Origin: an uncultured beta proteobacterium
GTDB lineage: Bacteria; Pseudomonadota; Gammaproteobacteria; Burkholderiales; SG8-39
Direction of reading: 5' to 3'
Length of the DNA stretch: 64,000 bases
Assembly: GCA_963789885.1 (NCBI GenBank)
Contig: CAWBNB010000033.1
Location: 29,770 to 93,769, forward strand
The position numbers and the translations under genes are program-made. The notes under the pieces are model-generated. The model saw only the letters and a list, made by a program, of their open reading frames with translations, searched no databases and had not been told where the DNA came from. Shown one piece after another: positions 44,645 to 59,546 of the stretch (positions are counted from its first letter, which is position 1; each line of letters starts with the position of its first letter).

Positions 44645-45634
44645 TCAGACGGCGAGCCAGCGGCCGTCGAGGCGCGCCGACTCGAAGGCGCGCTCGATCA
44701 CGCGCACCGACACCCACGCGTCGGCGAACGAGCACGCGGGCGCCGGTCGCTGCCCGAGCACGGTGTCCACGAAGTCGCGCGTGGCGGGGCCGGGCGTCGC
44801 GTCCGCGGTGACCGACTCGACGGGCGCGCGGCCGCGGTTCCAGAGCGTGAGCTGCCAGCCGAGCGGGAGGTCGAGCGGGCGCTTCAGCTCGATCAGGCCC
44901 TCTTCGCCGTAGATCCGGATCTCGTCCCACATGTGCAGCCCGCGCGAGATGCAGGCGAGGTGGCAGCGCAGCTCGCCGAAATCGAGCTCGATGAAGCCGC
45001 CTTCGTCGGCCTTACCGGGTGGTCCCGGGCGGGTGATCGCCCGGACCTGCGTCGGCTGGCGGCGCAGGAGCCAGGGCAGCAGGTCGGCGATGTGCGAGCC
45101 GCGGCCGGTGAACGGGCCGCCGCCGCCGAGCGCCGGGTCGAGAAACCAGCCCGCCTTCTCGTAGCCGAGCTGCACCGTCTCGACGTAGCGGATCTCGCCG
45201 AGCGCGCCGGCGGCGACGAGCTCGCGCGCCCGGACCGAGCCGGGATCGAAGCGGCGGGTGAAGGCCACCGCGTTCACGAGCGAACGCGCGGCGGCGGCAG
45301 CGGCGAGCTCGGCCGCCTCGCGCTCATGCATGACGAACGGCTTGTCGACCAGGAGATGCTTGCCCGCCTCGACGCAGCGACGCACGTGCTCGGCGTGCAG
45401 CGTGTGCGGCGTGCTCAGGATCACCGCAGTGCACGCGTTCGGCGCCAGGATGTCCTCGATGCGCGTGGTGAGCTTCGCGCCGGTCTCGGCGGCGAGCGCG
45501 CGCAGCGGCTCCGGGGCCACGTCGCAGATCCACGAGATCCGCACGCCCGGGTCGGCGCGTAGCGCCGGCACGTGATAGCGGCGCGAGAAGCCGCCGCAGC
45601 CGAGGAGCGCGATGGCGAGCGGCGCGGCGGTCAC
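44645..45634 (-). CDS. Gfo/Idh/MocA-family oxidoreductase
   Basis: Forms the C-terminal 329 codons of ORF 44645-46369. Its GTG start at 45634 overlaps the upstream TGA (GTGA). Sequence VTAAPLAIALLGCGGFSRRYHVPAL...EAGKHLLVDKP. Confidence 0.8.
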   Translation of the reverse strand: MTAAPLAIALLGCGGFSRRYHVPALRADPGVRISWICDVAPEPLRALAAETGAKLTTRIEDILAPNACTAVILSTPHTLHAEHVRRCVEAGKHLLVDKPFVMHEREAAELAAAAAARSLVNAVAFTRRFDPGSVRARELVAAGALGEIRYVETVQLGYEKAGWFLDPALGGGGPFTGRGSHIADLLPWLLRRQPTQVRAITRPGPPGKADEGGFIELDFGELRCHLACISRGLHMWDEIRIYGEEGLIELKRPLDLPLGWQLTLWNRGRAPVESVTADATPGPATRDFVDTVLGQRPAPACSFADAWVSVRVIERAFESARLDGRWLAV

Positions 45635-46369
45635 GGCAGCGCTCCGGTCGTGATGAACGCAAGCGTCTTGCCCCACGCGTCGGCGGCCACCTCGGGATGG
45701 TGCGAGGGCCGCGTGTCGTTGAAGAAGGCGTGCTCCGCGCCGGCGTAGACATGCAGGTGGTGACGGATGGCCATGGCGCTCGAACGACGCGCGGAGCGCC
45801 TCGACGTCCGTCGCGACGATCAGCGGATCGCGCTCGGCGAAGAGGCCGAGATACGGCGCGCCGATCAGCCCGGCGACGTCGAGCGGCGTGAACGGCTTGA
45901 GGACCGGATCGCGGCCGAAGGTGATGCGGCCGTAGAAGTTGATCACGCCGGCGAGCCTCGAGTCGAACGCGCCGAGGTAGTGGGCGAAACGCCCGCCCTT
46001 GCAGAATCCCCAGGCGAAGAGCGCGCGCGGACGCACGCCGAGGCTGCCGGCGAGCACGCCGAGCGCCGCGCGACAGTCGCGGATCCCGCGCGGGTCGTCG
46101 TAGCGGTCGAAGAACCCGAGCACCTGCTCGATCGGATCGGATTCCCGCGGCGGCGGCACACCGCGGTACGGGTCGGGCGCGAGCGCCACGACGCCGGCGC
46201 GCGCAAGCCGCTCGCAGACCGCGCGGATGTTGCCGTTGACGCCCCAGATCTCGCCGAGGACGAGCACGCCCGGGCAGCCTTCGGCGCGCGCGGGTAGCGC
46301 GGCGTACGCGCCGGTGCGGACGCCGCGCTCGACCTCGATTTCGAGTTGCCGCGTGACGATCTCGCTCAT
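45631..46369 (-). pseudogene. Dienelactone hydrolase-family protein interrupted by a 1-nt insertion near 45763
   Basis: From ATG 46369 the frame reads MSEIVTRQ...WGFCKGGRFA (nucleophile Cys)...ALRASFERHGHP. The conserved C-terminus HHLHVYAGAEHAFFNDTRPSHHPEVAADAWGKTLAFITTGALP* lies in the next frame and ends at TGA 45633-45631. The length of 739 nt equals 246 codons plus 1 nt. Confidence 0.8.
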
Positions 46370-47411
46370 CAGTAGAACTCCGCGACACGTTGCGTCATCC
46401 CGGTCCGCGCCGCCTCATAGGCGGCAAGGATCATCGCGAGCGAGCGCCGCCCGTCCTCGAGGCCCATCGGTGGCGCCACGTCGCGCTTCAGGCGCATCGA
46501 CGAACGCGATCGCGTTCTGCTGGTGGAAGCCGCCGGTCTTGAAGCGCGGCACGATGGCCGAGACCTCCCAGGTGCGCTCCGGCTGGTCCGCAGAGTAGAA
46601 GCGCAGGAAACCGCTCGCGGTGTGCTCCTTCGACGCGAGGTCGACGCCGGAGAGGAGCGCGCTGCCCTGGGTGCCGAAGATCTCGACCGAGACGTCGGCG
46701 GCCTGGAAGTTCCAGCCGGTGGCGAGCTCGGCGAGAAGGCCGCCGGGGAACCGGTAGATCGCGAGCGCGGTGTCCTCGACCGCGAGGCCCGAAGTCCGGT
46801 CCGAGACGAGCGCGGTCACCGACTCCGGGTCGCCGAAGAGCCAGCGCAGGAAATCCGCGCCGTGCACGCCCTCGTCGAGGAGGGTCCCGCCGCCCGAACG
46901 GCGCCGGGTTCGCCCACCAGCCGCCGGTGAACGCGGCGTCGTGGCCGTAGCGGTGGCCGTGGCGCACGCGGACGAGCCATGGCGTGCCGAAGAAACCCGC
47001 CTCGAGCCGCCGCCTGATCTCGTGGTTGGCCGGGTCGAAGCGCTTGGGGAAGCTCTGCATGAAGCGCACGCCGGCGCGATCGATCGCTTGCGCGATCGCG
47101 CGCGCGTCCTCGCGCGTGGTCGCGATCGGCTTCTCGCACAGCACATGCTTGCCGCGCGCCGCGGCGCGCTCGATCAGCGGGCGGTGCGCGGCGGTTTCCG
47201 AGCACACCGCGACCGCGTCGACGGCGCCCAGCAGCGCATCGAGCGACGCGACGAACTGCGTCCCGTAGCGTGCGGCGGATTCGGCGCCACGCCGCGGGTC
47301 GTCGTCCCAGACGCCGACGAACGCGACCTCCGGCGAATCGCGAAACACCTCCGACCAGAAGTTCGCGTGATAGTGCGCGAAGCTGAGGATCCCGATGCGG
47401 ATCTCGTTCAT
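46369..47411 (-). pseudogene. Gfo/Idh/MocA-family oxidoreductase interrupted by two 1-nt insertions (near 46904 and 46492)
   Basis: Frame 1 from ATG 47411 reads MNEIRIGILSFAHYHANFW...GGWWANP. Frame 2 reads RRSGGGTLLDEGVHGADFLRWLFG...AIAFVDA. Frame 3 reads LKRDVAPPMGLEDGRRSLAMILAAYEAARTGMTQRVAEFY*. The length of 1043 nt equals 347 codons plus 2 nt. Confidence 0.8.
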
Positions 47412-48478
47412 GCCTGCCTCACCGCTTCGGCCACCGGCACGACCCGCTCGGTACGACCCGATTCGGCGGAGCGATAGATCGCCTCCGCGAGGAGCAGGGT
47501 CGCGAGGCCGTCGAGTGCCGTGCGGTCGGGCGGCAGCTTGCCGCGCACGCGGTCGAGGAAGTCGGCGTGGTGGCGCTCGCCGAACCGGCGCGCGGGCAGT
47601 TCCGGCACGACCCATTCGCGCTTGCCGGTGACGCCGGGCGCGAAGAGCGCGAGCGGCCCGCGCTCGGAGCGCAGGCGGATCGTGGCGTCGGCGCAGAAGA
47701 TCTCGCAGGCGAAGCGATCGGTGCCGGCCTGCTCGGTCAGGTCCATCTCGTGCGAGACGAGCGGCCCGTCGGCGAACCGGTAGGTCGCGAACGCGTGGTC
47801 CTCGTTGTCGGGGCGCACGGTCGTGCCGTCCTTCAGGCGGCGCTCGGCGAGGAGCTGGGCGACCGTCGCCGACACGGTCGCCACGTCGCCGAAGAGGAAG
47901 CGCAGCACGTCCATGCCGTGCACGCCGAGCTGCAGGACTACGCCGCCGCCGACCTTTTCGCGCGAGAAGAACCACGCGCTCCAGTCCGGCCCGGGCGTCG
48001 CGTTGCGCATGCGCGCCGAGAGCACCGGCCCGGCCGCGCCGCCGGCGAGGAGCTCGGCGGTGCGCTGCACCTCCTCGAAGTAGCGGTGCATGAAGCTCAC
48101 CTGGAGGAAGACGCTGCCGCGGCGCGCGGCCTCCAGGATGCGCAGGCACTCGGCGCTCGAACGCCCCATGGGCTTTTGCAGCAGCACCGCCTTGCCCGCC
48201 GCCGCGGCGGCGCACGCGATCTCGCAGTGGGTGTCGTCGGGTGTCGCGATTACCACCGCGTCGACGTCGCGCCGATCGAGCACCGACCGCCAGTCGGTCG
48301 CGACCTCCGGGATCGCAAAGCGACGGGCGACCTCGCCGGCGCGCTCTCGCGAGCGCGCGGCAATGACGCGCACCGCGGCGCCGCCCGCTGCCGCAAGGCC
48401 GGCGAGGTGATAGTCGGCGATCGAGCCGGCACCGAGGAATCCGACGCCGACCGTACCGGCGGCCGCGTGCCCGGTCAT
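47408..48478 (-). CDS. Gfo/Idh/MocA-family oxidoreductase
   Basis: Lies in ORF 47408-48946, with the start at ATG 48478 (MTGHAAAGTVGVGFLGAGSIADYHL...). There are ATGA overlaps at both ends. Confidence 0.85.
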   Translation of the reverse strand: MTGHAAAGTVGVGFLGAGSIADYHLAGLAAAGGAAVRVIAARSRERAGEVARRFAIPEVATDWRSVLDRRDVDAVVIATPDDTHCEIACAAAAAGKAVLLQKPMGRSSAECLRILEAARRGSVFLQVSFMHRYFEEVQRTAELLAGGAAGPVLSARMRNATPGPDWSAWFFSREKVGGGVVLQLGVHGMDVLRFLFGDVATVSATVAQLLAERRLKDGTTVRPDNEDHAFATYRFADGPLVSHEMDLTEQAGTDRFACEIFCADATIRLRSERGPLALFAPGVTGKREWVVPELPARRFGERHHADFLDRVRGKLPPDRTALDGLATLLLAEAIYRSAESGRTERVVPVAEAVRQA

Positions 48479-49530
48479 GCCTTCCACCGCCCGCGCACCT
48501 TGACCAGCGACGGGTCGATGCGCTCGAGCGGATCGGTGTACGTGTAGTCGAGGACGTTGATGCGCTTCCTGATCCGCCCTGACGCCTCGAGGAACGCGGC
48601 GGTCCGCTCCATGTCCTCCACGTACGCCTCGTCGAACGCGGGATTGAAGACGTAGTCGCCCCAGATCGCGCGGTTCGCCGCGGCGTCCTGCTTCTGGAAC
48701 TCGGAGAAGATCCGCACCGTCTCGTCGCGGCGGGCGGGGTCGGCGCTCTGCCGCTGGCCGCGCAGCAGCACCGCGAGCATCGCGCCCACCGCCTGCGGAT
48801 TCTTGCGGACGTAGTCCTGGTTGGCGACGAAGATCGACCGGTTGTTCGAGACGCGCACGGTCTGGCCCTTGTTCGCGGCGAACTCGCTCGTCGACCCGGT
48901 GTGCACGAGCTTCGTCTGGCCGGCGGCGAGCGCGCGCTGGGGCCACGGCTCCCAGCAGAGCAGCCCCTGCACCGTCCCCGAGGCGAGGCCGGCGAGCTGC
49001 TCCGGCGGCGGCAGGTTCACCACCTGCAGCTTCTGCTGGTCGAGCTTGTAGTACTGCGCCAGGTAGTACAGCAGCGCGCTCGAGGTCGAGCCCTGCAGCA
49101 GGCCGATCTTGATCTTGTAGAGGTCCTCGGGCGTGTTGACGTTAGCGTCGTTGCGCACCACGAGCTTCTCGAGGTTCCAGTTCACGCAGTTCGTGCCGAG
49201 CACGACGACCGGGCTGCCATTCGACGCCATCGAGATCGGCGGCAGGTTCCCCGGCGTCCAGAGCTGGATCTCCCCCGCGAGCAGCGCCTCGCCGGCGAGC
49301 GCACCGGCGGTGAAGGTGCGCGTCTTCACGTCCGAGAACCCGGCGTCCTTGAACCAGCCCTGCGTGATGCCGAGGATGTGGGGCGCGAACGGCGGATCGA
49401 CGCCGAATCCGAGCGCGAGGTTCGCCGACTCCGGGCGCGGTCCTTGTGCGCTCACGAGTCCCGGGAGCACGGATGGACCCGCCAGGGCGCCGGCACCTGC
49501 GGCGAGAAGCTGTCTGCGTTTGTTGTCCAT
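48475..49530 (-). CDS. ABC transporter substrate-binding protein (NitT/TauT, NMT1-like) with Tat-like leader
   Basis: Lies in ORF 48475-49584, with the start at ATG 49530 after GGAGGAG. N-terminus MDNKRRQLLAAGAGALAGPSVL. Confidence 0.75.
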   Translation of the reverse strand: MDNKRRQLLAAGAGALAGPSVLPGLVSAQGPRPESANLALGFGVDPPFAPHILGITQGWFKDAGFSDVKTRTFTAGALAGEALLAGEIQLWTPGNLPPISMASNGSPVVVLGTNCVNWNLEKLVVRNDANVNTPEDLYKIKIGLLQGSTSSALLYYLAQYYKLDQQKLQVVNLPPPEQLAGLASGTVQGLLCWEPWPQRALAAGQTKLVHTGSTSEFAANKGQTVRVSNNRSIFVANQDYVRKNPQAVGAMLAVLLRGQRQSADPARRDETVRIFSEFQKQDAAANRAIWGDYVFNPAFDEAYVEDMERTAAFLEASGRIRKRINVLDYTYTDPLERIDPSLVKVRGRWKA

Positions 49531-49620
49531 CGTCTCCTCCTGGTGATCACGACACGAGGGGCCACAGCTCCTCGTGCTCCCCAAAGCCAGGGAAACCGCT
49601 ATCCGGTTTCGTCCTGGTGG

Positions 49621-50382
49621 TCACACTGCGTGCCAGCGGCCGACCGAGCGCCGGATCGCGACGCCGAGCACCCAGTCCGTCGCGAGCGCGGCGAGCCCGA
49701 TCAGCAGGATGCCAAAGATGATCACCCCGACATCGGCCGTCTGGCGCGCGTTCATGATCATAAAGCCCATCCCGGTGTCGGCCGCGATCAGCTCGGCGGC
49801 GACCAGCACGCCGAACGAGAGCCCCCAGCCGACGCGCAGGCCGATCGCGATGTCGGGCAGGGCCGCCGGCAGAATCACTCGCGTCAGGAGGACGATGCCG
49901 CTCACGTCCATCGTCTGCGCCGCGCGCACCAGCGTCGGGTCAACGCTCGTGATTCCGCGGTAGGCGTTGGTGAGCACCGGGAAGAACGCGCCGAGGAAGA
50001 TGACGAATACCTTCGAGGCTTCGCCCAGTCCGAACCACACGATCGCCATCGGGATCCACGCGAGCGGCGGGATCGGCCGGAGCAGCTCGATCACCGGGCG
50101 GACGAAATTGCCGAAGGTGCGATACCAGCCGGCCGCAATCGCGATCGCGATGCCGAGCGCGGCACCCGCTGTGAAACCGGCCGCGATCCGGCCGAGGCTG
50201 ACGGCGACATGACCGCCGATCGTCGCGAGGGAAAGCTTGGTGAGCGCCTCCGCGATCGCCCGGCTCGGCGGCGGGAAGAGCGCGCTCGCCGGGCCGGCCC
50301 GCGCGGCGAGCTCCCAGGCGGCGAGGAACGCGAGCGTCCCGGCCACGCCGAGCGCGATCTCGCGCGAGCGGGAGCGAGTCAT
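49621..50382 (-). CDS. ABC transporter permease (NitT/TauT family)
   Basis: Forms the C-terminal 253 aa of ORF 49621-51132, with the start at ATG 50382 (MTRSRSREIALGVAG...). It has a binding-protein-dependent transport inner-membrane motif region. Confidence 0.8.
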   Translation of the reverse strand: MTRSRSREIALGVAGTLAFLAAWELAARAGPASALFPPPSRAIAEALTKLSLATIGGHVAVSLGRIAAGFTAGAALGIAIAIAAGWYRTFGNFVRPVIELLRPIPPLAWIPMAIVWFGLGEASKVFVIFLGAFFPVLTNAYRGITSVDPTLVRAAQTMDVSGIVLLTRVILPAALPDIAIGLRVGWGLSFGVLVAAELIAADTGMGFMIMNARQTADVGVIIFGILLIGLAALATDWVLGVAIRRSVGRWHAV

Positions 50383-51179
50383 CGGCGCACCTCGGCGAGG
50401 CCGCGATGCCAGGGCAGGAGCGCGCGCTCGATCCACCCGAGGCCGGCGGTGAACGCAAAACCGAGGAAACCGAGCGCGATCATGCCGACGATGCTCACGT
50501 CGGTGCGGTAGAACGTTCGCGCCTCCATGATCAGCGCGCCGAGTCCGGCGACGGTCGCGATCATCTCGGCGCCGACGATGACCATGAAGCCCACGCCGAT
50601 CGCCACGCGCGCGCCGGCGAGGAGCCGCGGGGTCGCGGCCGGGAGGACGACCTTGAAGAAAAGCGCCGGGCCGCCGACGTCCATCGTGCGCGCGGCGCGG
50701 ACGAGGACCGGATCGACGTACTTCGCCGCCGCGGTCGCGTTCGTGAGCATCACCCAGAAGCAGGCGTAGGCGATCAGCATCACCTTGGACGTCTCGCCGA
50801 GGCCGAACCACAGCAGCGCGAGCGGCAGGAGGCTGAGCGTGGCGACCGAGCGCGCGAACGTCACGACCGGCAGGGTCAGCTGATCGAGCGCCGGAGCCCG
50901 GCCGATCAGGAGGCCGAGCGGAATCGCGACGACAGTGGCGAGCGCGAACCCGGTGAGGATCCGCTGGATGGTGACGAGCGCGTGCGTCCCGATCCGCGTC
51001 CCCGTCGGGAACCCCGCGACGATCATTTCCCAGGATGCGGCGGCGATGCGCGAAGGCGGCGGAAACTGGAACGGCTTCAGCCATCCAAGCGTGGAGGCGG
51101 CTTCCCACAGTACGAGGAGGAGGATCACGCACGCCGCGCCCTGGACGCCGGGAAGCGCGAGCCAGCGGCGCGTGCTCAC
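50379..51179 (-). CDS. ABC transporter permease (NitT/TauT family)
   Basis: Lies in ORF 50379-51371. The probable GTG start at 51179 overlaps the upstream stop (GTGA). Sequence VSTRRWLALPGVQGAACVILLLVLWE.... Confidence 0.75.
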   Translation of the reverse strand: MSTRRWLALPGVQGAACVILLLVLWEAASTLGWLKPFQFPPPSRIAAASWEMIVAGFPTGTRIGTHALVTIQRILTGFALATVVAIPLGLLIGRAPALDQLTLPVVTFARSVATLSLLPLALLWFGLGETSKVMLIAYACFWVMLTNATAAAKYVDPVLVRAARTMDVGGPALFFKVVLPAATPRLLAGARVAIGVGFMVIVGAEMIATVAGLGALIMEARTFYRTDVSIVGMIALGFLGFAFTAGLGWIERALLPWHRGLAEVRR

Positions 51180-53424: not shown

Positions 53425-53582
53425 CGGCGAATTCCGGTGGGGACGGGCTAGCGGAGATCGGGGTGGTAACGATAACGGTCGCCGCGCATGTGCGCCTGAG
53501 GAAGCTCGGCCGGGCGGTCGCCGACGGACATCCGAACGTATGGTAGGGTCGCCACGTCGCATCATGCAAGCGCGCGGCGCGG

Positions 53583-54860
53583 ATGACAGTCGTTCTGGAC
53601 GGCCGGACGAAGGGGCTCGCGGCGGGCGTCACTGGGCTCGCGCTCGCCGACGTCGGTCGGGCCGGCTGGAACGTGCTCGCCGAGGATCTGCCGCTTCCGC
53701 TCGCGCTGCTCAAGGACTCCGCGCTCCGCCACAACTCCGCCTGGATGCGGCGGTTCCTCGCCGCGACCGGCGTCGCGCTCGCGCCGCACGGCAAGACGAC
53801 GATGAGCCCGCAGCTCTTCGCGCGCCAGCTCGCGGACGGCGCCTGGGGCATCACCGTCGCCACCGTCCAGCAGCTCCGCGTCTGCCGGGAGCACGGCATC
53901 GCCAGGGTGCTCCTCGCCAACCAGCTCGTCGGGCGGCAGGCGATCGGCTACGTGCTCGACGAGCTCGCCCGCGACCCGGCGTTCGAGTTCTACGCGCTGG
54001 TCGACTCCGTGGCCGGCGTCGACGCGCTCGCCGCGGCCGCCCGCGCCCGCCGTGCGACGCGACGCCTGCGGCTGCTGCTCGAGTGCGGCGTCGACGGCGG
54101 CCGCGCCGGCTGCCGGACCCTCGGGCAGGCCCGTGCCGTCGCGGAACGGGTCGTGGCGGCGCGCGACGTGCTCGCGCTCGCCGGGGTCGAGGGCTACGAA
54201 GGCTCGGTACCCGGCGCCGCGCCGGACGAGCAGGAGCGGAACATCGGCCGCTTCGTCGGGTTCATGGTCGAGGTCGCGGCGGCCTGCGCGGACGCGAAGT
54301 GGTTCGACACCGAGCCGGTCCTGCTCTCGGCCGGCGGCTCGGCGTTCTTCGACCTCGCCGCGACCCTGCCCAAGTCGCTCGCCGGCAGGCCGACGCAGGT
54401 GCTCCTCCGCAGCGGCTGCTACCTGACCTACGACACCGACGTCTACCGGCGCGCATTCGAGCGGATGCGCGACCGCACGCCCGCGGTCGCCGCGCTCGGC
54501 GACGGCCTGCACGAGGCGCTCGAGGTCTGGGCGTACGTGCAGTCGACGCCCGAGCCCGGCCTCGCGATCCTCACGATCGGCAAGCGCGACGTGTCGCACG
54601 ATCTCGCGCTGCCGTTCCCGCGCTGGCATTTCCGGCCCGGCGCGGCCGGCGCGCCGACCGCGGTCCCGGCGGACTGGAGGATCGCGACGCTCAACGACCA
54701 GCACGGCTACCTGCGCACGGGATCCCGGCCCGAGCTCCGGGTCGGCGACATGATCGGCTGCGCGATCTCCCACCCGTGCACCACCTTCGACAAGTGGCGC
54801 TTCCTGCCGATCGTCGATGACCGCTACGGCGTGGTCGACGCCGTCGTCACCTGTTTCTGA
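53583..54860 (+). CDS. PLP-dependent amino-acid deaminase / D-serine dehydratase-like protein (alanine-racemase-N fold)
   Basis: 425-aa ORF. The PLP-Lys context is LAPHGKTTMSPQL, and the C-terminal motif is GCAISHPCTTFDKW. Confidence 0.75.
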   Translation: MTVVLDGRTKGLAAGVTGLALADVGRAGWNVLAEDLPLPLALLKDSALRHNSAWMRRFLAATGVALAPHGKTTMSPQLFARQLADGAWGITVATVQQLRVCREHGIARVLLANQLVGRQAIGYVLDELARDPAFEFYALVDSVAGVDALAAAARARRATRRLRLLLECGVDGGRAGCRTLGQARAVAERVVAARDVLALAGVEGYEGSVPGAAPDEQERNIGRFVGFMVEVAAACADAKWFDTEPVLLSAGGSAFFDLAATLPKSLAGRPTQVLLRSGCYLTYDTDVYRRAFERMRDRTPAVAALGDGLHEALEVWAYVQSTPEPGLAILTIGKRDVSHDLALPFPRWHFRPGAAGAPTAVPADWRIATLNDQHGYLRTGSRPELRVGDMIGCAISHPCTTFDKWRFLPIVDDRYGVVDAVVTCF

Positions 54861-54874
54861 GCGAGGACCGTCTC

Positions 54875-56335
54875 TTGGCGATGACCCCGAAGAACCTCCT
54901 GATTCTCATGTCCGACGAGCACAACCCGAAGGTGATGGGCTGCGCCGGGCACGGAATCATCCGCACGCCGAACCTCGACGCGCTGGCCGCGCGCGGCACG
55001 CGCTTCACCAGCGCGTACACGACCTGCCCGATCTGCGTGCCGGCGCGCGCGGCGTTCGCGGTGGGGAAGTACGTAAACCAGATCGGCTACTGGGACAACG
55101 GCGACGCCTACGAGGGTGCGATCCCGAGCTGGCACCACCGCCTCCGCGCGCTCGGGCACGAGGTGGTCTCGATCGGCAAGCTGCACTTCCGCGGCGCGAA
55201 GGGCGACGACCACGGCTTCACGAAGGAGATCGTGCCGATGCACGTCATCGACGCGATCGGGGACGTAAAGGGCTTCATCCGCCACGACATCCCGAAGCGC
55301 AAGGGCGGCGACAAGATGGCGAAGTACGCCGGGCCGGGCGAGTCGCCCTATACCGTGTACGACCGCGACATCGCCGCGCGGGCGCAGGTCTGGCTGCACG
55401 AGGCCGCCCGCCGCCAGCACGACCGGCCGTGGGTGCTGTTCGTGTCGTTCGTTGCGCCCCACTTTCCGCTCACCGCGCCGCCCGAGTGGTACTACGAGTA
55501 CGCGTCGCGCGACCTGCCGATGCCGAAACAGTACGCGCCCGCCGAACGGCCGGATCATCCCTACCTGCGCGACTATGCCCACTGCGTCGACTACGACACG
55601 CACTTCAAGAACCCGGCGGACGTGAAGCGCGCGATCGCGGGCTACTACGGGCTGGTGAGCTCGCTCGACGAGAACATCGGCAAGGTGCTGCGCGCGCTCG
55701 AGCGGAGCGGGCTCGCCGGCGACACGCGCGTCGTCTACACGTCGGATCACGGCGACAACGTCGGCGCGCGCGGACTGTGGGGCAAGTCGACGTTCTACGA
55801 GGAATCCGCCGGCGTGCCGCTGATCCTCGCGGGCGAGGGCGCGCCGGCCGCGGCGGTGCGCGATGCACCGGCGAGCCACGTCGACATCTACCCGTACGTG
55901 TTCGAGTGCGTCGGTGTGCCGGTGCCGGGCGACGACGGCCATCCCGGCGTCTCGCTCGCGCGGCTCGCCGCCGGCGAACGGCCGGACCGGGCGGTCCTGA
56001 GCGAGTATCATGCGATCGGCTCGGTCGCGGGCGCCTTCATGCTGCGCGACGGGAATTACAAGTACGTACACTACGTCGCCTACCGGCCGCAGCTCTTCGA
56101 TCTCGCGCGCGATCCCGGCGAGCTGGTCGATCTCGCGGGCGACCCCGCGTACGCACCGGTGCTGGAGCGGCTCCACAAGCGCCTCCTCGGGCTCTGCAAT
56201 CCGGACGAGGTCGACGCGCGCGCCAAGCGGCGCCAGGCGGAGCTGCTCGCGCGGTTCGGCGGGCGCGAGGCGGCGCTCGCGCGGGGCGATCTCGGCTTCA
56301 CGCCGGCACCGGGCACGCCGCCCGAGATGAACTAA
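54875..56335 (+). CDS. Cys-type sulfatase paralogue, no signal peptide
   Basis: 486-aa ORF starting MAMTPKNLLILMSDEHN.... The CxPxR signature sits in TTCPICVPARAAFAVGK. It shares blocks with 51961-53424 (GYWDN, SIGKLHFR, DHGFT.E). Confidence 0.85.
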   Translation: MAMTPKNLLILMSDEHNPKVMGCAGHGIIRTPNLDALAARGTRFTSAYTTCPICVPARAAFAVGKYVNQIGYWDNGDAYEGAIPSWHHRLRALGHEVVSIGKLHFRGAKGDDHGFTKEIVPMHVIDAIGDVKGFIRHDIPKRKGGDKMAKYAGPGESPYTVYDRDIAARAQVWLHEAARRQHDRPWVLFVSFVAPHFPLTAPPEWYYEYASRDLPMPKQYAPAERPDHPYLRDYAHCVDYDTHFKNPADVKRAIAGYYGLVSSLDENIGKVLRALERSGLAGDTRVVYTSDHGDNVGARGLWGKSTFYEESAGVPLILAGEGAPAAAVRDAPASHVDIYPYVFECVGVPVPGDDGHPGVSLARLAAGERPDRAVLSEYHAIGSVAGAFMLRDGNYKYVHYVAYRPQLFDLARDPGELVDLAGDPAYAPVLERLHKRLLGLCNPDEVDARAKRRQAELLARFGGREAALARGDLGFTPAPGTPPEMN

Positions 56336-56343
56336 GGTGAAAC

Positions 56344-56447: not shown

Positions 56448-57800
56448 ATGGCACCTGGAACGATCCGGTCGCGCGCGCGGCGATGGACGGGCGTTGGCGT
56501 CGCGGCGGTCGCGCTCGCGCTCGCGTCGGGCGCCGCGCTCGCGCAGAAGGTCGCGCCGATCAACGTCGTCATCAACCAGTCGCCGTGGTTCGGCGGCTTT
56601 TCGAAGGTGGTCGAGGCCTACGAGAAGGAGACCGGCAACAAGGTCAACCTCGACGTCAATCCGTTCGCCGGCAGCGCCGAGAAGCAGCGGAGCTCCGTGC
56701 GCGCAAAGGAAGGCCAGGTCGACCTGCTGGTGATGAACTCGACCTGGCTCGCCGAGTTCTACCACGGCGGGTTCCTGGTCCCGCTCAACGACATCGACCC
56801 CGGCTTCAAGCTCGACCCGCAGGTGATCAACTACGACGACACCGCGTACTGGGACCCGAAGACGAAGACCAACAACTCGAAGACCGGTGTCGTGTACGGC
56901 GTGCCGATCAACGGCAACATCGCGGTGCTCTATTACCGCGCCGATCTCTACGAGCAGGCGGGGCTCAAGGCGCCGACGACGTGGGAGGAGCTCCTCGCCA
57001 ACGCGCGTAAGCTCCACAACCCGCCGAACGTCTACGGCATTGTGGTGCGCGGCGCGCGCAGCGCGTCGGACATCTCGTACGACTGGATGCCGTATCTCCA
57101 CAGCCACAACGGCGCGATCTTCAAGGACGAGAAGAACGGCGACTTCACCGTCACGCTGAACAGTCCCGAGGGGAAGAAGGCGCTCGACATGTACCTCGAG
57201 CTCGCGAAGACCGCCGGGCCGCCGAATCCCGGCAGCTACGGGCAGGCGCAGGTGATCCAGGCGCTCGTGACCGGCAAGGCCGCGCACGCGACGCCCGTCA
57301 TCGCCGCCTGGTCGCAGATGGACGATGCGACCAAGTCGGCGGTCGTCGGAAAGATGAACGTCGTGGTCCTGCCGCACGGGCCCGGCGGGCAGCCTGCGCC
57401 CACGCTCGGCCACTTCATCGGCGCGATCCCGAAGAACATCCCGCGGGAGCGCCAGGTCGCCGCGCTCGCCTTCCTCAAGTGGTTCCAGACCTACGACGCG
57501 CAACTCAAGTACGCACAGGCCGGCCAGCCGCCGATCCGCAAGGACGTGTACGCGGCGGACTTCGGCAAGAAGCCCGAGTTCCGGTGGATGAAGGCGATGG
57601 TCGACAGCGCGCCGTACCCGCGCATGATGTACACGGTGCCCGAGGGCGCCCAGATCGTCGCGGTGCTCGAGCTGCGGCTCAACCAGGCCGTGATCGGCGA
57701 GCGCACCTCGACCGACGCGCTCAACACCGCCGCGGCGGAGATCCACGAGATCATGCGGAAGGCCGGCTACAAGACCGGACGCCTGCCCGACCTGAAATAG
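56448..57800 (+). CDS. Extracellular solute-binding protein (family 1, CUT1 sugar ABC)
   Basis: 450-aa ORF with a signal peptide and SD AAGGAGGAG upstream. Confidence 0.85.
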   Translation: MAPGTIRSRARRWTGVGVAAVALALASGAALAQKVAPINVVINQSPWFGGFSKVVEAYEKETGNKVNLDVNPFAGSAEKQRSSVRAKEGQVDLLVMNSTWLAEFYHGGFLVPLNDIDPGFKLDPQVINYDDTAYWDPKTKTNNSKTGVVYGVPINGNIAVLYYRADLYEQAGLKAPTTWEELLANARKLHNPPNVYGIVVRGARSASDISYDWMPYLHSHNGAIFKDEKNGDFTVTLNSPEGKKALDMYLELAKTAGPPNPGSYGQAQVIQALVTGKAAHATPVIAAWSQMDDATKSAVVGKMNVVVLPHGPGGQPAPTLGHFIGAIPKNIPRERQVAALAFLKWFQTYDAQLKYAQAGQPPIRKDVYAADFGKKPEFRWMKAMVDSAPYPRMMYTVPEGAQIVAVLELRLNQAVIGERTSTDALNTAAAEIHEIMRKAGYKTGRLPDLK

Positions 57801-57805
57801 CTGCA

Positions 57806-58708
57806 ATGCCAGCGCTTGCGCGCGGCGGGCTCGCCGGCGACACCGCGCGCTGGCGGCACTACACGCTCGCGCCGGCGGTCGCCGTCTATCTGGCGCTCAC
57901 CGCGTTGCCGATCGCCAACCTGCTGGTGATGTCGGTGCACGACATCCGGTGGGAGCAGGGCGTGGCGCAGTGGGCGTTCGCCGGGGCGAAGCACTTCGCC
58001 GAGCTCCCGCGCGACCAGCTCTTCCGCGACGGCCTCGCCAACACGGCGCTCTTCGCGGTGTGCGCAGTGTCGGCCGAGCTGGTGCTCGGCTTCCTGCTCG
58101 CCCTGTTCACGAGCCGCGTCGTCCGCGGGCGCCTCTTCTATCGCACCGCGTTCCTCCTGCCGATCCTCATCCCCGGGATCGTCATCGGCGCGATCTGGAA
58201 GCTCGCCTACAACCCGGACTTCGGCGTCATCAACCAGCTCCTCGGGCTCGCCGGCCTGCCGGGAAAGGACTGGCTGGGCGAGAAGACGCTCGCGTTCGCG
58301 TCGATCGTGGTCGTCGACATCTGGCACTGGACGCCGTTCGTGTTCCTGCTGCTCCTGGCGGGGCTCGAGTCGCTGCCGCAGGACGTGTACGAGGCGGCGA
58401 AGATCGACGGCGCGAGCGCCTGGCAGGAGCTGCGCTACGTGACGCTGCCGATGATGGTCCCGACGATCGCGGTCACGGCGGTGTTCCGGCTGATCGTCTC
58501 GTTCAAGGTGTTCGACGAGGTGTATCTCCTCACCGGTGGCGGCCCGGGCACCGCGACCGAGGTGGTGAGCTTCACGATCTACCGGCGGTTCTTCACCGAG
58601 GACCGCATCGGGTACGGCTCGGCGATCTCGGTGGTCGTGCTGTTCCTGCTGACGCTCGTCATCGTCCTCGCGCTCGCCGCGCTGCGGCGGCGGCGGGACG
58701 AGGCCTAG
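57806..58708 (+). CDS. Carbohydrate ABC transporter permease (MalF-like)
   Basis: Forms the C-terminal 300 aa of ORF 57479-58708, with the start at ATG 57806. EAA loop: LPQDVYEAAKIDGASAWQELRYVTLP. Confidence 0.85.
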   Translation: MPALARGGLAGDTARWRHYTLAPAVAVYLALTALPIANLLVMSVHDIRWEQGVAQWAFAGAKHFAELPRDQLFRDGLANTALFAVCAVSAELVLGFLLALFTSRVVRGRLFYRTAFLLPILIPGIVIGAIWKLAYNPDFGVINQLLGLAGLPGKDWLGEKTLAFASIVVVDIWHWTPFVFLLLLAGLESLPQDVYEAAKIDGASAWQELRYVTLPMMVPTIAVTAVFRLIVSFKVFDEVYLLTGGGPGTATEVVSFTIYRRFFTEDRIGYGSAISVVVLFLLTLVIVLALAALRRRRDEA

Positions 58709-58717
58709 GCGCTCGCC

Positions 58718-59546
58718 GTGGTCGGCTCGCGCACCGCCAGCCTCGGGATGCACGCGGTGCTCGTGCTGGCGGCGCTCCTCGTCATCTTCCCGATCGTCTG
58801 GATCGCGCTCGCCGCGCTCAAGACGCAGATCGCGCTGCTGCGCGGCGACGTCTTCTTCACTCCGGTCTGGACCAACTTCAACGAGCTGCTCTTTTCGCGC
58901 AGCTCGGACTACCTGGCGGACTTCCTGAACAGCCTGATCGTCGCCTCGGCCTCGACGGCGCTCGTGCTCGCAATCGCTACACCTGCCGCCTATTCGCTCC
59001 ATCGCCTCGGCTGGCCACGCTGGGTGCCCGCGGCGGTGCTCCTGTGGTCGCTCGTCTTTCACATGCTCCCGCCGATCACGATGGTCGGGCCGTGGTACGT
59101 GATGTTCCGCAGCCTCGGCCTCGACAACACCTACACCGGCCTCGCGGCTCGCGCACCTCGCGCTCAACCTGCCGATCGGCATCTGGCTGATGTCGGTCTT
59201 CGTGCGCGAGATCCCGCTCGAGCTCGAGGAGGCGGCGCGCGTCGACGGCTGTACCACCCCGCAGATGCTGTGGCGCATCGTGGTCCCTCTGGTGGCGCCG
59301 GGGCTCGCGGCGACGGCGGTCATCTGCTTCGTGTTCAGCTGGAACGAGTTCGCGGTGGCGCTCAACGTCACCGCCAGGCAGACGGCGACCGTGCCGGTCG
59401 CGATCGCGCGGTTCGCGCAGGAGTACGAGATCAAGCACGGCGTGATGGCGGCGGGCGCGGTGCTGTCCGCCATCCCGGCCGTCCTGCTGCTGCTCGCCGC
59501 GCAGCGGCACATCGTGAAGGGGCTGACCGCCGGCGCGATCCGGTAG
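58718..59546 (+). pseudogene. Carbohydrate ABC transporter permease (MalG-like) interrupted by a 1-nt insertion near 59147
   Basis: The frame from GTG 58718 reads ...MFRSLGLDNTYTGLA. The continuation LAHLALNLPIGIWLMSVFVREIPLELEEAARVDGC... (ORF 59190-59546) lies in the +1 frame. The length of 829 nt equals 276 codons plus 1 nt. Confidence 0.8.

What the first reader, a model, noticed from the sequence alone, without database searches (positions are those of the whole stretch)
44645..59546. Cytoplasmic-sulfatase-centred catabolic locus with no sulfatase-maturation gene in view
A minus-strand gene chain runs 53424->44645. Within each block the genes are joined by ATGA/GTGA/TGATG or 1-nt overlaps, and the two blocks are separated by 90 nt. 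The chain encodes a Cys-type sulfatase, a NitT/TauT-type ABC system (ATPase, two permeases, binding protein), three Gfo/Idh/MocA dehydrogenases and a dienelactone hydrolase. Diverging from it are a D-serine-dehydratase-like PLP enzyme, a second sulfatase paralogue and a CUT1 sugar ABC system. Both sulfatases carry the CxPxR formylglycine motif but no export signal. This points to import followed by intracellular desulfation of a sulfated sugar, amino-sugar or similar ester, then oxidation by the Gfo/Idh/MocA enzymes, lactone hydrolysis by the DLH, and deamination. No FGE or anSME maturase gene and no regulator lie inside the locus. The substrate is unknown, and I do not recognise this gene combination as a described pathway.
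Basis: inference. Interest (0 to 1): 0.55.

Follow-up and report, generated by a model that had tools for sequence, protein, structure and literature searches.

The report
Conserved two-sulfatase sugar-ester catabolic gene cluster
This is a real gene cluster, conserved across several bacterial groups, that most likely imports a still-unidentified sulfated sugar-like compound, removes the sulfate inside the cell and oxidises the sugar; no studied example was found, and the apparent gene breaks are most likely sequencing errors.

Summary
All nine minus-strand genes, their ATGA/GTGA/TGATG/TAGTG junctions, the 90-nt gap, the divergent PLP enzyme, second sulfatase and CUT1 genes, the CxPxR motifs and the missing signal peptides are as described. 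No FGE, radical-SAM or regulator gene lies in the 64 kb.

A 99.6%-identical contig has all of these genes intact. Other long-read MAGs are broken in different genes, and short-read MAGs in none. I therefore read the breaks as assembly errors.

Both sulfatases are closest to choline-O-sulfatase BetC. They fall below its equivalog cutoff and lack its choline-binding hairpin.

All 13 structural genes recur one-to-one at 53-72% identity in an alphaproteobacterial MAG. There they form one co-directional array that starts with a GntR regulator and ends with an FGE gene. The window keeps only a 25-codon relic of that regulator.

A TctC binding protein and a GCI/DauB-like enolase-superfamily enzyme next door also co-occur with the cluster.

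The ABC-Gfo1-Gfo2 core also occurs without S1 sulfatases, next to MBL-fold or DUF3604 hydrolases or a glucokinase.

The substrate remains unknown. I rate this a new variant of a known kind, of moderate interest.

The parts
41711..42865 (-). Enolase-superfamily (MR_MLE) enzyme, close to lactone and anhydro-sugar-acid cycloisomerases. Probable downstream step of the pathway.
   Evidence: Best PDB matches are AtGCI galactaro-1,4-lactone cycloisomerase 4ggb (4e-88) and DauB 3,6-anhydro-D-galactonate cycloisomerase 5olc (2e-81) (identities of these entries from PMC5698469). It falls below all NCBIfam equivalog cutoffs. It co-occurs with the cluster in L001, L002, L003 and L105, and two MR_MLE genes lie in L085.
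42873..43946 (-). TctC/Bug-family periplasmic binding protein (orphan carboxylate receptor). The gene caller on the sister contig uses a start equivalent to 43841.
   Evidence: PF03401 on the identical gene of L082 and L001. TctC genes recur next to these sulfatases in 14 loci.
44645..45634 (-). Gfo3, a Gfo/Idh/MocA oxidoreductase with a GTG start that overlaps the DLH stop (GTGA).
   Evidence: PF01408, PF22725 and PF02894. Junction. Orthologues are 49-82% identical in L002-L004, L006, L009, L020, L084 and L089.
45631..46369 (-). Dienelactone-hydrolase-family enzyme with a GFCKGG Cys-nucleophile motif. In the window it is interrupted by an extra C at 45764.
   Evidence: Frame switch. The insertion is absent from the 99.6%-identical L001, where the gene is 245 aa and intact.
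46369..47411 (-). Gfo2, a Gfo/Idh/MocA oxidoreductase with the conserved unusual N-terminal motif ILSFAHYHANFW. In the window it is interrupted by an extra C at 46902 and another at 46493.
   Evidence: Pfam. Three-frame reading. Intact at 346 aa in L001. Motif conserved in L084, L087 and L102. Best PDB match is 1,5-anhydro-D-fructose reductase at 1.7e-26.
47408..48478 (-). Gfo1, a Gfo/Idh/MocA oxidoreductase joined by ATGA overlaps on both sides.
   Evidence: Pfam. Best PDB matches are entry 6a3f (labelled 'putative dehydrogenase'; levoglucosan dehydrogenase by my recollection) at 3e-29 and scyllo-inositol/L-glucose dehydrogenase. It always follows the binding protein in relatives.
48475..49530 (-). 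NMT1/SsuA/TauA-like periplasmic binding protein with a Tat-like signal (MDNKRRQLLAAGAG...), preceded by AGGAGG.
   Evidence: PF13379 and PF09084; SsuA_fam 103 bits, below the cutoff of 163.5. Best PDB matches are TauA and SsuA at about 1e-10. 439 database relatives at E<=1e-30.
49531..49620 (-). 90-nt spacer between the two translationally coupled blocks. It folds into two hairpins.
   Evidence: z = -2.06; weak, function not established.
49621..51179 (-). Two NitT/TauT-type ABC permeases (50382->49621 and 51179->50379) joined by an ATGA overlap.
   Evidence: PF00528. Nearest NCBIfam models are TauC, SsuC and SaoP, all below cutoff.
51176..51961 (-). ABC ATPase of the NitT/TauT system. Its GTG start overlaps the SulfA stop by 1 nt.
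   Evidence: PF00005. Nearest models are SaoA and the taurine ATPase. Junction.
51961..53424 (-). SulfA, a cytoplasmic Cys-type (FGly) S1 sulfatase of 487 aa. It is BetC-like but not BetC.
   Evidence: PF00884 at 5e-42. Best PDB match is choline sulfatase 6fny at 7.6e-55. TIGR03417 scores 256.6, below the 433.45 cutoff. CCPAR motif and catalytic residues are conserved; the choline hairpin is absent.
53448..53525 (-). Relic of the 3' end (25 codons plus stop) of the GntR/UTRA regulator gene that precedes SulfA in relatives.
   Evidence: tblastn gives 64-76% identity to the C-termini of the GntR genes of L002, L004, L005 and L009. The translation is VGDRPAELPQAHMRGDRYRYHPDLR*.
53583..54860 (+). 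Fold-type III PLP enzyme of the D-serine-dehydratase/D-threonine-aldolase family. It is an accessory member of the cluster.
   Evidence: PF01168 and PF14031. PDB 3gwq 'D-serine deaminase' at 1e-108. Present in L001, L006, L008, L009 and L089; absent from L002-L004 and L084.
54875..56335 (+). SulfB, the second cytoplasmic FGly sulfatase, 44% identical to SulfA. The start is TTG at 54875 or ATG at 54881.
   Evidence: PDB 6fny at 3.9e-63. TIGR03417 scores 305.8, below the 433.45 cutoff. CVPAR motif. It travels with the CUT1 genes.
56448..59546 (+). CUT1-type ABC importer: binding protein 56448-57800 and permeases 57806-58708 and 58718-59546. There is no ATPase gene. Permease 2 is broken by an extra T at 59149.
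   Evidence: Best PDB match is the trehalose/maltose-binding protein 1eu8 at 3.8e-36. Precomputed Pfam: SBP_bac_1 on the binding protein and BPD_transp_1 on both permeases; permease 1 also matches GlcT, MalF and UgpA models. Frameshift.
59622..62506 (+). TRAP transporter genes in the order DctP, DctM, DctQ, co-directional with the CUT1 genes. Possible accessory carboxylate importer; membership is uncertain.
   Evidence: TIGR00787 and TIGR00786 above cutoff. PF04290. DctP is also present next to the cluster in L003.

Best explanation
The region 41.7-59.5 kb, possibly extending to 62.5 kb, is one catabolic island for a small anionic carbohydrate-type sulfate ester. It comes from an uncultured high-GC betaproteobacterium.

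Proposed steps:
1. Two periplasmic binding-protein importers bring the substrate or substrates in. One is an SsuA/TauA-like NitT/TauT system and the other is a CUT1 sugar-type system.
2. Each importer is paired with its own signal-less, formylglycine-dependent S1 sulfatase. SulfA goes with NitT/TauT and SulfB with CUT1. Each sulfatase releases sulfate in the cytoplasm.
3. The freed sugar or cyclitol is worked on by three NAD(P)-dependent Gfo/Idh/MocA oxidoreductases, by oxidation, epimerisation through a keto intermediate, or both.
4. A Cys-type DLH-fold hydrolase opens the resulting lactone or ester.
5. In this genome the product is passed on to a 2-keto-3-deoxy acid. The candidate enzymes are a GCI/DauB-like enolase-superfamily enzyme and/or a DSD-like PLP ammonia-lyase.

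Shown here: the gene families, the translational coupling, the absence of signal peptides on the sulfatases, conserved catalytic residues, cross-class co-conservation, and an in-locus FGE and GntR in a relative.

Inferred: that the esters are sulfates, the order of the steps, the role of each Gfo enzyme and of DLH, and the identity of the substrate.

The four frameshifts in the window are most likely long-read assembly errors and not gene decay.
For: - Families and junctions.
- BetC is the best structural relative of both sulfatases, with the catalytic residues aligned (Asp14, FGly Cys, Asn75, Lys102/His104, His201, Asp296/His297, Lys309); residue roles from PMC9063841.
- All nine chain genes lie in the same order in L002-L004, L006, L009 and L020 at 53-95% identity, and in L105.
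- L084 carries GntR, Sulf, ATPase, two permeases, SBP, Gfo, Gfo, DLH, Gfo, Sulf, CUT1 SBP, two permeases and FGE in one co-directional array. Its genes are one-to-one orthologues at 53-72% identity.
- In L040 the sulfatase sits at the other end of the chain, so the link survives rearrangement.
- In Rokubacteria (L085) an S1 sulfatase only 26% identical to SulfA/SulfB follows Gfo2, which suggests independent recruitment of a sulfatase to the same core.
- SulfB-like sulfatases pair with CUT1 genes in L041, L043 and L089.
- The regulator in relatives is GntR/UTRA (HutC/PhnF/TreR-like), typical of substrate-induced catabolic operons.
- Locus proteins are not depleted in Cys+Met: 2.9% versus 2.7 +/- 0.8% for other window genes.
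- The MR_MLE neighbour matches ring-opening cycloisomerases of sugar acids.
- Related betaproteobacterial loci pair two such sulfatases with TctC, IlvD/Edd-like and RraA-like genes; those family names are my reading of the translations, not Pfam hits.
- Frameshifts as artefacts: the window differs from the 99.5-99.6%-identical ENA contig by 16 single-base indels in 21 kb, many outside the locus. Long-read MAGs L002, L003, L004 and L020 are each broken in different genes, while short-read MAGs L006 and L009 are broken in none. All start/stop overlaps are preserved in the corrected frames.
Against: - No substrate was identified and no characterised homologous cluster was found.
- Sequence alone cannot separate sulfate-ester hydrolysis from phosphonate or phosphodiester hydrolysis in this superfamily.
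- The ABC-Gfo1-Gfo2 core occurs without any S1 sulfatase in L095-L103 and L087. Those loci carry an RNase-Z-like MBL gene, a DUF3604/PHP-like gene or a glucokinase instead. The imported compound therefore need not be a sulfate ester in every lineage.
- The DSD-like and MR_MLE genes are accessory.
- The Gfo enzymes match characterised enzymes only weakly (E 1e-19 to 1e-29).
- DLH-family enzymes are not the usual sugar lactonases.
- No kinase or aldolase for a keto-deoxy acid lies in the locus.
- Genuine frameshifts in this strain cannot be excluded without the reads.
Confidence: 0.55

Rival explanations
1. This is an ats-like sulfur-scavenging system. The NitT/TauT transporter and sulfatase serve only to harvest sulfate from organic esters during sulfate limitation, as AtsRBC-AtsA does in Pseudomonas. 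The neighbouring oxidoreductases would then be unrelated.
For: A Cys-type cytoplasmic sulfatase lies directly upstream of an SsuA/TauA-type ABC importer. That is the architecture of the Pseudomonas ats locus (my own knowledge).
Against: - The sulfatase, transporter, three Gfo genes and DLH are translationally coupled and stay together across classes.
- The regulator in relatives is GntR/UTRA rather than a CysB/Cbl-type LysR protein.
- Locus proteins are not depleted in Cys/Met.
- A second sulfatase is tied to a sugar-type CUT1 importer.
Confidence: 0.12
2. The two 'sulfatases' are really phosphonate-monoester or phosphodiester hydrolases of the alkaline-phosphatase superfamily. On this reading the locus handles a sugar phospho(no)ester and not a sulfate ester.
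For: - PMH/PehA-type enzymes share the FGly machinery.
- PehA and PMH appear among the weaker hits.
- In other lineages the equivalent operon position is held by RNase-Z-like MBL or PHP/DUF3604 proteins, families better known as phosphoesterases.
Against: - BetC and arylsulfatase models score far higher than PMH/PehA. PDB E-values are 1e-55 to 1e-63 against 1e-25 to 1e-37. NCBIfam bit scores are 257-306 against 130-165.
- The transporter is of the sulfonate/taurine type and not PhnD- or Ugp-like.
Confidence: 0.1
3. The locus is decaying in this organism. The four frameshifts are real, so Gfo2, DLH and CUT1 permease 2 are pseudogenes, in line with loss of the GntR regulator.
For: - Four single-base insertions, none in a homopolymer run, break three genes.
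- The regulator gene has been deleted, leaving a relic.
Against: - The 99.6%-identical contig has every gene intact, and it carries the same regulator deletion.
- Indels of the same kind are scattered across the rest of the window and across other long-read MAGs in different genes. Short-read MAGs have none.
- No stop codons or larger lesions have accumulated, and the start/stop overlaps are intact.
Confidence: 0.08
4. This is a choline-O-sulfate utilisation locus, with both sulfatases acting as BetC orthologues.
For: BetC is the best structural match and TIGR03417 the best NCBIfam model for both proteins.
Against: - Scores are 256.6 and 305.8, below the 433.45 equivalog cutoff.
- The GW-X13-WYHN choline hairpin (Trp129/His145) is replaced by Val/Gly in SulfA and Asp/Asp in SulfB.
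- No betA, betB or betI genes and no ProX-type binding protein are present.
Confidence: 0.03

Closest known systems
Choline-O-sulfatase BetC of Sinorhizobium meliloti (SulfAtlas S1_12; PDB 6fny, 6g5z, 7pth)
   Same: Both are cytoplasmic Cys-type FGly sulfatases of about 500 aa. BetC is the best sequence match to SulfA and SulfB, and all catalytic and metal-binding residues align.
   Different: SulfA and SulfB fall below the TIGR03417 cutoff. The choline-clamping hairpin (Trp129/His145) is absent. The BetC-specific C-terminal tail was not covered by the alignments. The genomic context is sugar-type oxidoreductases and importers rather than betIBA.
Pseudomonas atsA-atsRBC sulfate-ester utilisation locus (my own knowledge; Kertesz and co-workers)
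   Same: A cytoplasmic Cys-type sulfatase lies next to an SsuA/TauA-family ABC importer for sulfate esters.
   Different: The ats locus is a sulfur-starvation regulon member without carbon-processing genes. Here the same operon carries three Gfo/Idh/MocA enzymes and a DLH, a second sulfatase with a CUT1 importer, and a GntR regulator in relatives. There is no low-sulfur protein signature.
Carrageenan regulon of Zobellia galactanivorans (sulfatases plus DauA-D; PMC5698469) and the oxidative uronate route with galactarolactone cycloisomerase (AtGCI)
   Same: Desulfation is coupled to non-phosphorylative oxidation of the released sugar and to ring opening by an enolase-superfamily cycloisomerase. 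The window's MR_MLE enzyme matches AtGCI and DauB at 4e-88 and 2e-81.
   Different: - The locus has no SusC/D genes, glycoside hydrolases or secreted sulfatases.
- Its sulfatases are cytoplasmic and BetC-like.
- The oxidising enzymes are Gfo/Idh/MocA proteins rather than an aldehyde dehydrogenase or an SDR.
- The host is a soil or freshwater betaproteobacterium.
Oxidised-chitin (GlcNAc1A) pathway OngB/OngC/OngD of Pseudoalteromonas (PMC9537276)
   Same: [quoted passage not shown] The window has a DSD-like enzyme, and L089 has RidA plus a DSD-like gene inside the cluster.
   Different: No deacetylase or KDG kinase is present, and the DSD-like gene is missing from several versions of the cluster.

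Membership tests
S1 formylglycine-dependent sulfatases | Sulfatase domain (PF00884) above the gathering score | tested here: met
   SulfA scores 144.6 bits against a cutoff of 25. SulfB and its relatives are listed as PF00884 in the precomputed annotation.
S1 formylglycine-dependent sulfatases | C/S-x-P-x-R FGly motif plus conserved metal and catalytic residues | tested here: met
   The motifs are CCPAR (SulfA) and CVPAR (SulfB). The N-terminal Asp, Asn75, Lys102/His104, His201, SDHG (Asp296/His297) and Lys309 equivalents all align with BetC. Residue roles come from PMC9063841.
S1 formylglycine-dependent sulfatases | Post-translational conversion of Cys to formylglycine by FGE or anSME | not testable with these tools
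   No FGE or radical-SAM gene lies in the 64-kb window. The orthologous array in L084 ends with an FGE gene (PF03781) carrying GGSYLCHRSYCFRYR. The rest of the genome was not available.
Choline-O-sulfatase (BetC, S1_12, TIGR03417) | Score at or above the equivalog cutoff of TIGR03417 (433.45 bits) | tested here: not met
   SulfA scores 256.6 bits and SulfB 305.8 bits.
Choline-O-sulfatase (BetC, S1_12, TIGR03417) | Choline-binding hairpin GW-X13-WYHN (Trp129, His145) | tested here: not met
   In the HMMER alignments Trp129 and His145 align to Val and Gly in SulfA and to Asp and Asp in SulfB. The motif is from PMC9063841.
Choline-O-sulfatase (BetC, S1_12, TIGR03417) | bet gene context (betA, betB, betI) | tested here: not met
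   No GMC oxidoreductase, aldehyde dehydrogenase or BetI-type regulator was found in the parts of the 64 kb that were scanned or annotated.
Phosphonate monoester hydrolases (S1_0) | Closest characterised relatives are PMH/PehA | tested here: not met
   PMH entries 2vqr, 2w8s and 4upk reach E 1e-25 to 1e-37, against 1e-55 to 1e-63 for BetC. PehA scores 130-165 bits against a cutoff of 900.
SulfAtlas subfamily assignment | Best hit to a SulfAtlas subfamily HMM | not testable with these tools
   The SulfAtlas HMMs are not available here. Only proximity to the S1_12 reference enzyme could be shown.
ats-type sulfur-scavenging locus | Sulfatase adjacent to an SsuA/TauA-family ABC importer | tested here: met
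ats-type sulfur-scavenging locus | Sulfate-starvation signature (cys-regulon control; low Cys/Met content of the proteins) | tested here: not met
   Cys+Met is 2.9% in locus proteins against 2.7 +/- 0.8% in other window genes. The regulator in relatives is GntR/UTRA. Expression itself cannot be tested here.
NitT/TauT (TC 3.A.1.17) ABC importer | NMT1/SsuA-type binding protein, two TauC/SsuC-like permeases and a TauB-like ATPase | tested here: met
   Pfam and NCBIfam hits. All fall below the equivalog cutoffs, so no known substrate class can be assigned.
CUT1 sugar ABC importer | SBP_bac_1 binding protein, two MalF/MalG-type permeases and a MalK-type ATPase | tested here: inconclusive
   The binding protein and both permeases are present. 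No ATPase gene is present in the window or in L084. A MalK-like ATPase belonging to another CUT1 system lies at 28261-29295.
Gfo/Idh/MocA oxidoreductases | N-terminal Rossmann domain PF01408, a C-terminal domain, and an EKP-type motif | tested here: met
   All three proteins hit the Pfam domains. The motifs are QKP, EKP and DKP. The iolG equivalog is not met (90-132 bits against a cutoff of 355).
Dienelactone hydrolase family | PF01738 domain with a Cys nucleophile motif | tested here: met
The GFCKGG and EHAFF motifs can be read. The comparison with ClcD is from memory.
Bacteroidetes-type polysaccharide utilisation locus | SusC/SusD pair, glycoside hydrolases and secreted sulfatases | tested here: not met
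   None of these appears in the Pfam lists for the region.

The most novel reading that the evidence does not exclude
The most widely conserved centre is the block of NitT/TauT importer plus Gfo1 plus Gfo2. It may define an undescribed route that turns a widespread anionic (sulfated or sulfonated) hexose into an ordinary hexose such as glucose. Marine versions carry a glucokinase directly after Gfo2.

At least three non-homologous metal-hydrolase families would have been recruited to the ester-cleavage position of that operon: BetC-like S1 sulfatases in Proteobacteria, an RNase-Z-like MBL protein in Methylomirabilota, and DUF3604/PHP-like proteins elsewhere.

If so, DUF3604 would be a new sulfatase or esterase family. 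The cluster would mark an unrecognised sink for carbohydrate ester sulfate in soils and waters.
Probability: 0.15. Interest if true: 0.8.

Novelty: new variant of a known kind. Interest (0 to 1): 0.5.

Why it matters
By established soil-science knowledge, ester sulfates are a large part of soil and freshwater organic sulfur. Even so, the cytoplasmic routes by which non-marine, non-gut bacteria consume sulfated carbohydrates are essentially uncharacterised.

This 13-gene unit is conserved one-to-one between Beta- and Alphaproteobacteria. Its transporter-oxidoreductase core reaches Methylomirabilota and marine contigs. It therefore offers a defined, testable candidate pathway, with two binding proteins and two sulfatases that could be screened against ligand libraries.

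The cluster also separates a BetC-like sulfatase clade from true choline sulfatases, which matters for annotation.

It flags two uncharacterised hydrolase families sitting in the sulfatase's operon position.

For the scan itself, it shows that frameshifts in long-read MAG windows should be checked against sister assemblies before pseudogenes are called.

Tried and rejected
- **Choline sulfatase.** Rejected on the equivalog score, the missing hairpin and the gene context.
- **Phosphonate monoester hydrolase.** Much weaker similarity. Kept only as a low-probability rival.
- **Pseudogene array.** Rejected as the main reading after comparison with the 99.6%-identical contig and with long-read and short-read MAGs.
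- **Exact-protein look-ups.** Those for SulfB, MR_MLE and two upstream genes found nothing because of point differences.
- **Promoter and terminator scan.** Nothing above the shuffled background. No Rfam family was found in 41-64 kb and no tRNA in the whole window. The hairpins in the 90-nt gap are only weakly better than shuffles.
- **Literature searches.** Searches for the gene combination, for cytoplasmic sulfatases with sulfated monosaccharides, and for DUF3604 found no description of this cluster.
- **PDB matches as substrate clues.** The binding proteins, the TRAP DctP and the three Gfo enzymes are too distant from characterised proteins to name a ligand.
- **NAD-dependent glycosidase idea.** I considered whether the Gfo proteins might be GH109- or GH188-like glycosidases. 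No such hits appeared among the PDB or NCBIfam matches.
- **A redox-assisted desulfonation of sulfoquinovose.** I considered this for the core operon, but nothing tested here supports it.

Full report
**1. The observation**

The window is about 70% G+C, so raw ORF lists are full of spurious frames. I used third-position GC and a six-state frame model to find the coding frames.

The minus-strand chain is real. It comprises:
- SulfA (53424->51961)
- an ABC ATPase (51961->51176)
- two permeases (51179->50379 and 50382->49621)
- an NMT1/SsuA-like binding protein (49530->48475)
- Gfo1 (48478->47408)
- Gfo2 (47411->46369)
- DLH (46369->45631)
- Gfo3 (45634->44645)

The junctions read TAGTG, GTGA, ATGA, a 90-nt gap with an AGGAGG site before the binding protein, ATGA, ATGA, TGATG and GTGA.

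Pfam and NCBIfam confirm every family named, and none reaches an equivalog cutoff. The divergent arm holds:
- a fold-type III PLP enzyme of the D-serine-dehydratase family (53583-54860)
- SulfB (54875-56335)
- a CUT1 binding protein
- two CUT1 permeases, ending at 59546

Both sulfatases carry the FGly motif (CCPAR and CVPAR). Each begins only 5-6 residues before the first catalytic strand, so there is no signal peptide. Both binding proteins have one.

**2.

In the sequence as given, three genes change frame:
- Gfo2 is read in three frames.
- DLH is read in two.
- CUT1 permease 2 is read in two.

An exact-protein look-up of SulfA found a 1.08-Mb metagenome contig (ENA ERZ25039490 contig_34598; loci L001 and L082). 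It is 99.5-99.6% identical over window 29.3-63.4 kb, and every one of these genes is intact there.

The window carries single extra bases at 45764, 46493, 46902 and 59149. Indels of the same kind are scattered through the rest of the comparison:
- There are 16 in 21 kb, including seven within 270 nt of an M23 peptidase gene.
- An amine-oxidase gene elsewhere in the window is also split over two frames.
- The sister contig has its own apparent error in DctM.

Long-read MAGs with the same cluster (L002, L003, L004, L020) are each broken in different genes. The short-read MAGs L006 and L009 are broken in none. All start/stop overlaps are preserved in the corrected frames.

I conclude that the frameshifts are most likely assembly errors. 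This cannot be proven without the reads.

**3. The sulfatases**

Both find choline-O-sulfatase BetC as their best solved relative (E 7.6e-55 and 3.9e-63). Phosphonate monoester hydrolases are far weaker, at 1e-25 to 1e-37. BetC defines SulfAtlas subfamily S1_12 and the PMHs define S1_0.

The catalytic and metal-binding residues of BetC all align. However:
- Both proteins score below the TIGR03417 equivalog cutoff (256.6 and 305.8 against 433.45).
- No bet genes are present.

They are therefore BetC-like cytoplasmic FGly sulfatases with a different, unknown substrate. SulfA and SulfB are 44% identical to each other.

**4. Maturase and regulator**

No FGE or radical-SAM gene was found in the 64 kb. 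The evidence is a six-frame motif scan of the whole window, Pfam scans of the gene models called up to ~30.8 kb and of several beyond 41.7 kb, and precomputed Pfam lists for the near-identical contig covering 29.3-63.4 kb. This is true but not remarkable, because such genes usually lie elsewhere in the genome.

In relatives a GntR/UTRA regulator (HutC/PhnF/TreR-like) sits immediately upstream of SulfA. It is seen in L002-L005, L009, L020, L057, L084, L092, L094 and L105.

The window retains only the last 25 codons and the stop of that gene, at 53525-53448. The lack of a regulator is therefore a lineage-specific deletion, shared with the sister contig.

**5. Co-conservation**

Anchoring on SulfA in 185,579 species genomes returned 80 loci. 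The full nine-gene chain, in order, is present in the Burkholderiales MAGs L002-L004, L006, L009 and L020 at 53-95% identity. In L040 the sulfatase sits at the other end of the chain.

More distant SulfA/SulfB homologues sit in other contexts:
- Betaproteobacterial loci L012-L017 and L076 have, by my reading of the translations, an IlvD/Edd-like gene, an RraA-like gene, a sulfatase, TctC and a second sulfatase.
- Stellaceae loci pair them with flavoprotein-like, GMC-like and ThiE-like genes.

Anchoring instead on the binding protein gave 439 relatives at E<=1e-30. Its contexts were examined next.

The most telling context is L084, an alphaproteobacterial MAG that NCBI names Vineibacter terrae (WP_329709065.1). 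It carries, in one co-directional array: GntR, Sulf, ATPase, permease, permease, SBP, Gfo, Gfo, DLH, Gfo, Sulf, CUT1 SBP, permease, permease, FGE. All 13 structural genes are one-to-one orthologues at 53-72% identity. Its FGE carries GGSYLCHRSYCFRYR, which I recognise from memory as the catalytic Cys pair of FGE.

This ties both arms of the window's divergent locus into one unit. It also pairs SulfA with the NitT/TauT importer and SulfB with the CUT1 importer. That pairing is seen again in L041, L043 and L089.

**6. The locus is larger than reported**

Downstream of Gfo3 there is first an inserted plus-strand haem-binding-protein gene. Beyond it lie a TctC-family binding protein (42873-43946) and an enolase-superfamily gene (41711-42865), on the same strand as the chain.

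The two best solved relatives of the enolase-superfamily protein are AtGCI, a galactaro-1,4-lactone cycloisomerase (4e-88), and DauB, a 3,6-anhydro-D-galactonate cycloisomerase (2e-81). Both open a sugar-acid ring to give a 2-keto-3-deoxy acid.

TctC and this MR_MLE gene accompany the cluster in L001, L002, L003 and L105. L085 carries two MR_MLE genes. A TRAP transporter (59622-62506) follows the CUT1 genes and is also found in L003.

**7. The conserved centre**

In Methylomirabilota/Rokubacteria (L085-L088) the ATPase, both permeases, the binding protein, Gfo1 and Gfo2 are 59-69% identical to the window's. Other features differ:
- DLH and Gfo3 are absent.
- An RNase-Z-like MBL-fold gene sits where SulfA sits.
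- The only nearby S1 sulfatases belong to a different subfamily. One is 26% identical and lies directly after Gfo2 in L085.

In metagenome contigs L096 and L098 a DUF3604/PHP-like gene accompanies the same core. In L098 it lies directly upstream of the ATPase. In L096 it lies upstream of the CUT1 genes. In marine contigs L102 and L103 the binding protein, Gfo1 and Gfo2 are followed by a glucokinase and a PHP-like protein. No S1 sulfatase lies within reach in any of these.

The sulfatases are thus one of several metal-dependent hydrolases attached to an older transporter-Gfo1-Gfo2 core. The glucokinase hints that the carbon skeleton can end as a hexose. No function for DUF3604 was found in the searchable literature.

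**8. Mechanism**

The best-supported reading has these steps:
1. Two importers take up a small anionic carbohydrate-type sulfate ester, or two related ones.
2. The paired FGly sulfatases desulfate it in the cytoplasm.
3. The three Gfo/Idh/MocA enzymes carry out NAD(P)-dependent oxidation and/or epimerisation. Their nearest characterised relatives, at only 1e-19 to 1e-29, act on sugar and cyclitol hydroxyls. They include scyllo-inositol/L-glucose dehydrogenase, 1,5-anhydro-D-fructose reductase, DgpA and, by my recollection of entry 6a3f, levoglucosan dehydrogenase.
4. The Cys-type DLH-fold enzyme hydrolyses a lactone or ester.
5. In this genome, the GCI/DauB-like enzyme and/or the DSD-like ammonia-lyase convert the product to a keto-deoxy acid.

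The last option has a direct precedent. OngC is a fold-type III PLP enzyme related to D-serine deaminases that deaminates D-glucosaminate to KDG and needs the RidA protein OngD (PMC9537276). L089 carries RidA plus a DSD-like gene between Gfo3 and SulfB.

A sulfur-scavenging role alone is unlikely, for three reasons:
- the translational coupling to the carbon-processing enzymes
- the GntR regulator in relatives
- the normal Cys+Met content of the proteins

The nature of the ester, the order of the steps and the substrate are all inferred. I put 0.55 on the general model.

**9. Comparison with known systems, and novelty**

The cluster works like a hybrid of three known kinds of system:
- the Pseudomonas ats locus, which pairs a sulfatase with an SsuA-type importer (my own knowledge)
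- BetC-type cytoplasmic desulfation
- non-phosphorylative sugar oxidation with an enolase-superfamily ring-opener, as in the carrageenan Dau route or the uronate Gci route

It is not a member of any of these. Full-text searches found no description of the combination.

Every component belongs to a known family and the general logic is familiar. I therefore class it as a new variant of a known kind, with interest 0.5. What raises it above a routine cluster of unknown substrate:
- the cross-class one-to-one conservation
- the in-locus FGE in L084
- the apparent non-orthologous replacement at the hydrolase position

What holds it down is the complete absence of substrate evidence.

Noticed in passing
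window 53448-53525 (-): A 25-codon relic, including the stop, of the GntR/UTRA regulator that precedes SulfA in most relatives. The regulator gene has been deleted in this lineage and in the 99.6%-identical contig.
   Followed up: yes
L085-L088 (for example L087 3362-4222); L098 3838-6099; L096 1081-3483; L102 4423-5976: In loci that share the ABC-SBP-Gfo1-Gfo2 core but lack an S1 sulfatase, other hydrolases take its place. An RNase-Z-like MBL-fold gene occupies SulfA's operon position in Methylomirabilota. A DUF3604/PHP-like gene does so in L098 and lies upstream of the CUT1 genes in L096. A PHP-like gene follows the glucokinase in L102. This may be non-orthologous replacement of the ester hydrolase or of the lactonase.
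   Followed up: partly
L102 3368-4426 and L103 5845-6390: Marine (TARA) versions of the core operon carry a glucokinase (PF02685) directly after Gfo2. This hints that the Gfo1/Gfo2 product is a phosphorylatable hexose.
   Followed up: partly
L089 14925-16578: A RidA-family gene sits directly upstream of the DSD-like gene, between Gfo3 and SulfB. This mirrors the OngD/OngC pair of the D-glucosaminate pathway. The contig also carries a WhiB gene, which suggests an actinobacterial host.
   Followed up: partly
L002 17111-17839: The DLH gene of L002 is only 54% identical to the window's, while all its neighbours are 78-92% identical. In L003 and L020 the DLH gene is 88-89% identical. This looks like an allele replacement within a conserved operon.
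   Followed up: no
window 19802-21383 (-), 32651-32917, 60620-60768: There are further frame breaks and indel clusters outside the finding. An amine-oxidase gene is split over two frames. Seven indels relative to the sister contig fall inside an M23 peptidase gene. Four indel differences lie between DctP and the start of DctM, one of which truncates DctM in the sister contig. These fit long-read assembly errors in both assemblies.
   Followed up: partly
window 16962-18230 (+): A sulfite-oxidase-family molybdoenzyme (PF00174 plus PF03404) lies about 27 kb from the locus. No link to the sulfatase cluster was established.
   Followed up: no
window 22626-23735 (+): A second D-serine-dehydratase-like PLP enzyme (PF01168 plus PF14031) lies divergent from a GCV_T aminomethyltransferase-family gene.
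   Followed up: no
window 59622-63707: The TRAP genes are in the unusual order DctP-DctM-DctQ. They are followed by the first ~50 codons of a second DctM (from 62499) and by a stretch without a clear coding signal (62656-63707). That stretch shows a cluster of mismatches and a 5-nt indel relative to L001. This may be a rearrangement scar.
   Followed up: no
window 49531-49620 (-): The 90-nt spacer before the binding-protein gene folds into two hairpins (-39.6 kcal/mol, z = -2.06 against shuffles). This is too weak to call a regulatory element.
   Followed up: partly
window 43982-44626 (+): A THAP4/nitrobindin-like haem-binding gene is inserted on the opposite strand between Gfo3 and TctC. It is present only in the window and its sister contig. 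In L003 and L006 TctC follows Gfo3 directly.
   Followed up: partly
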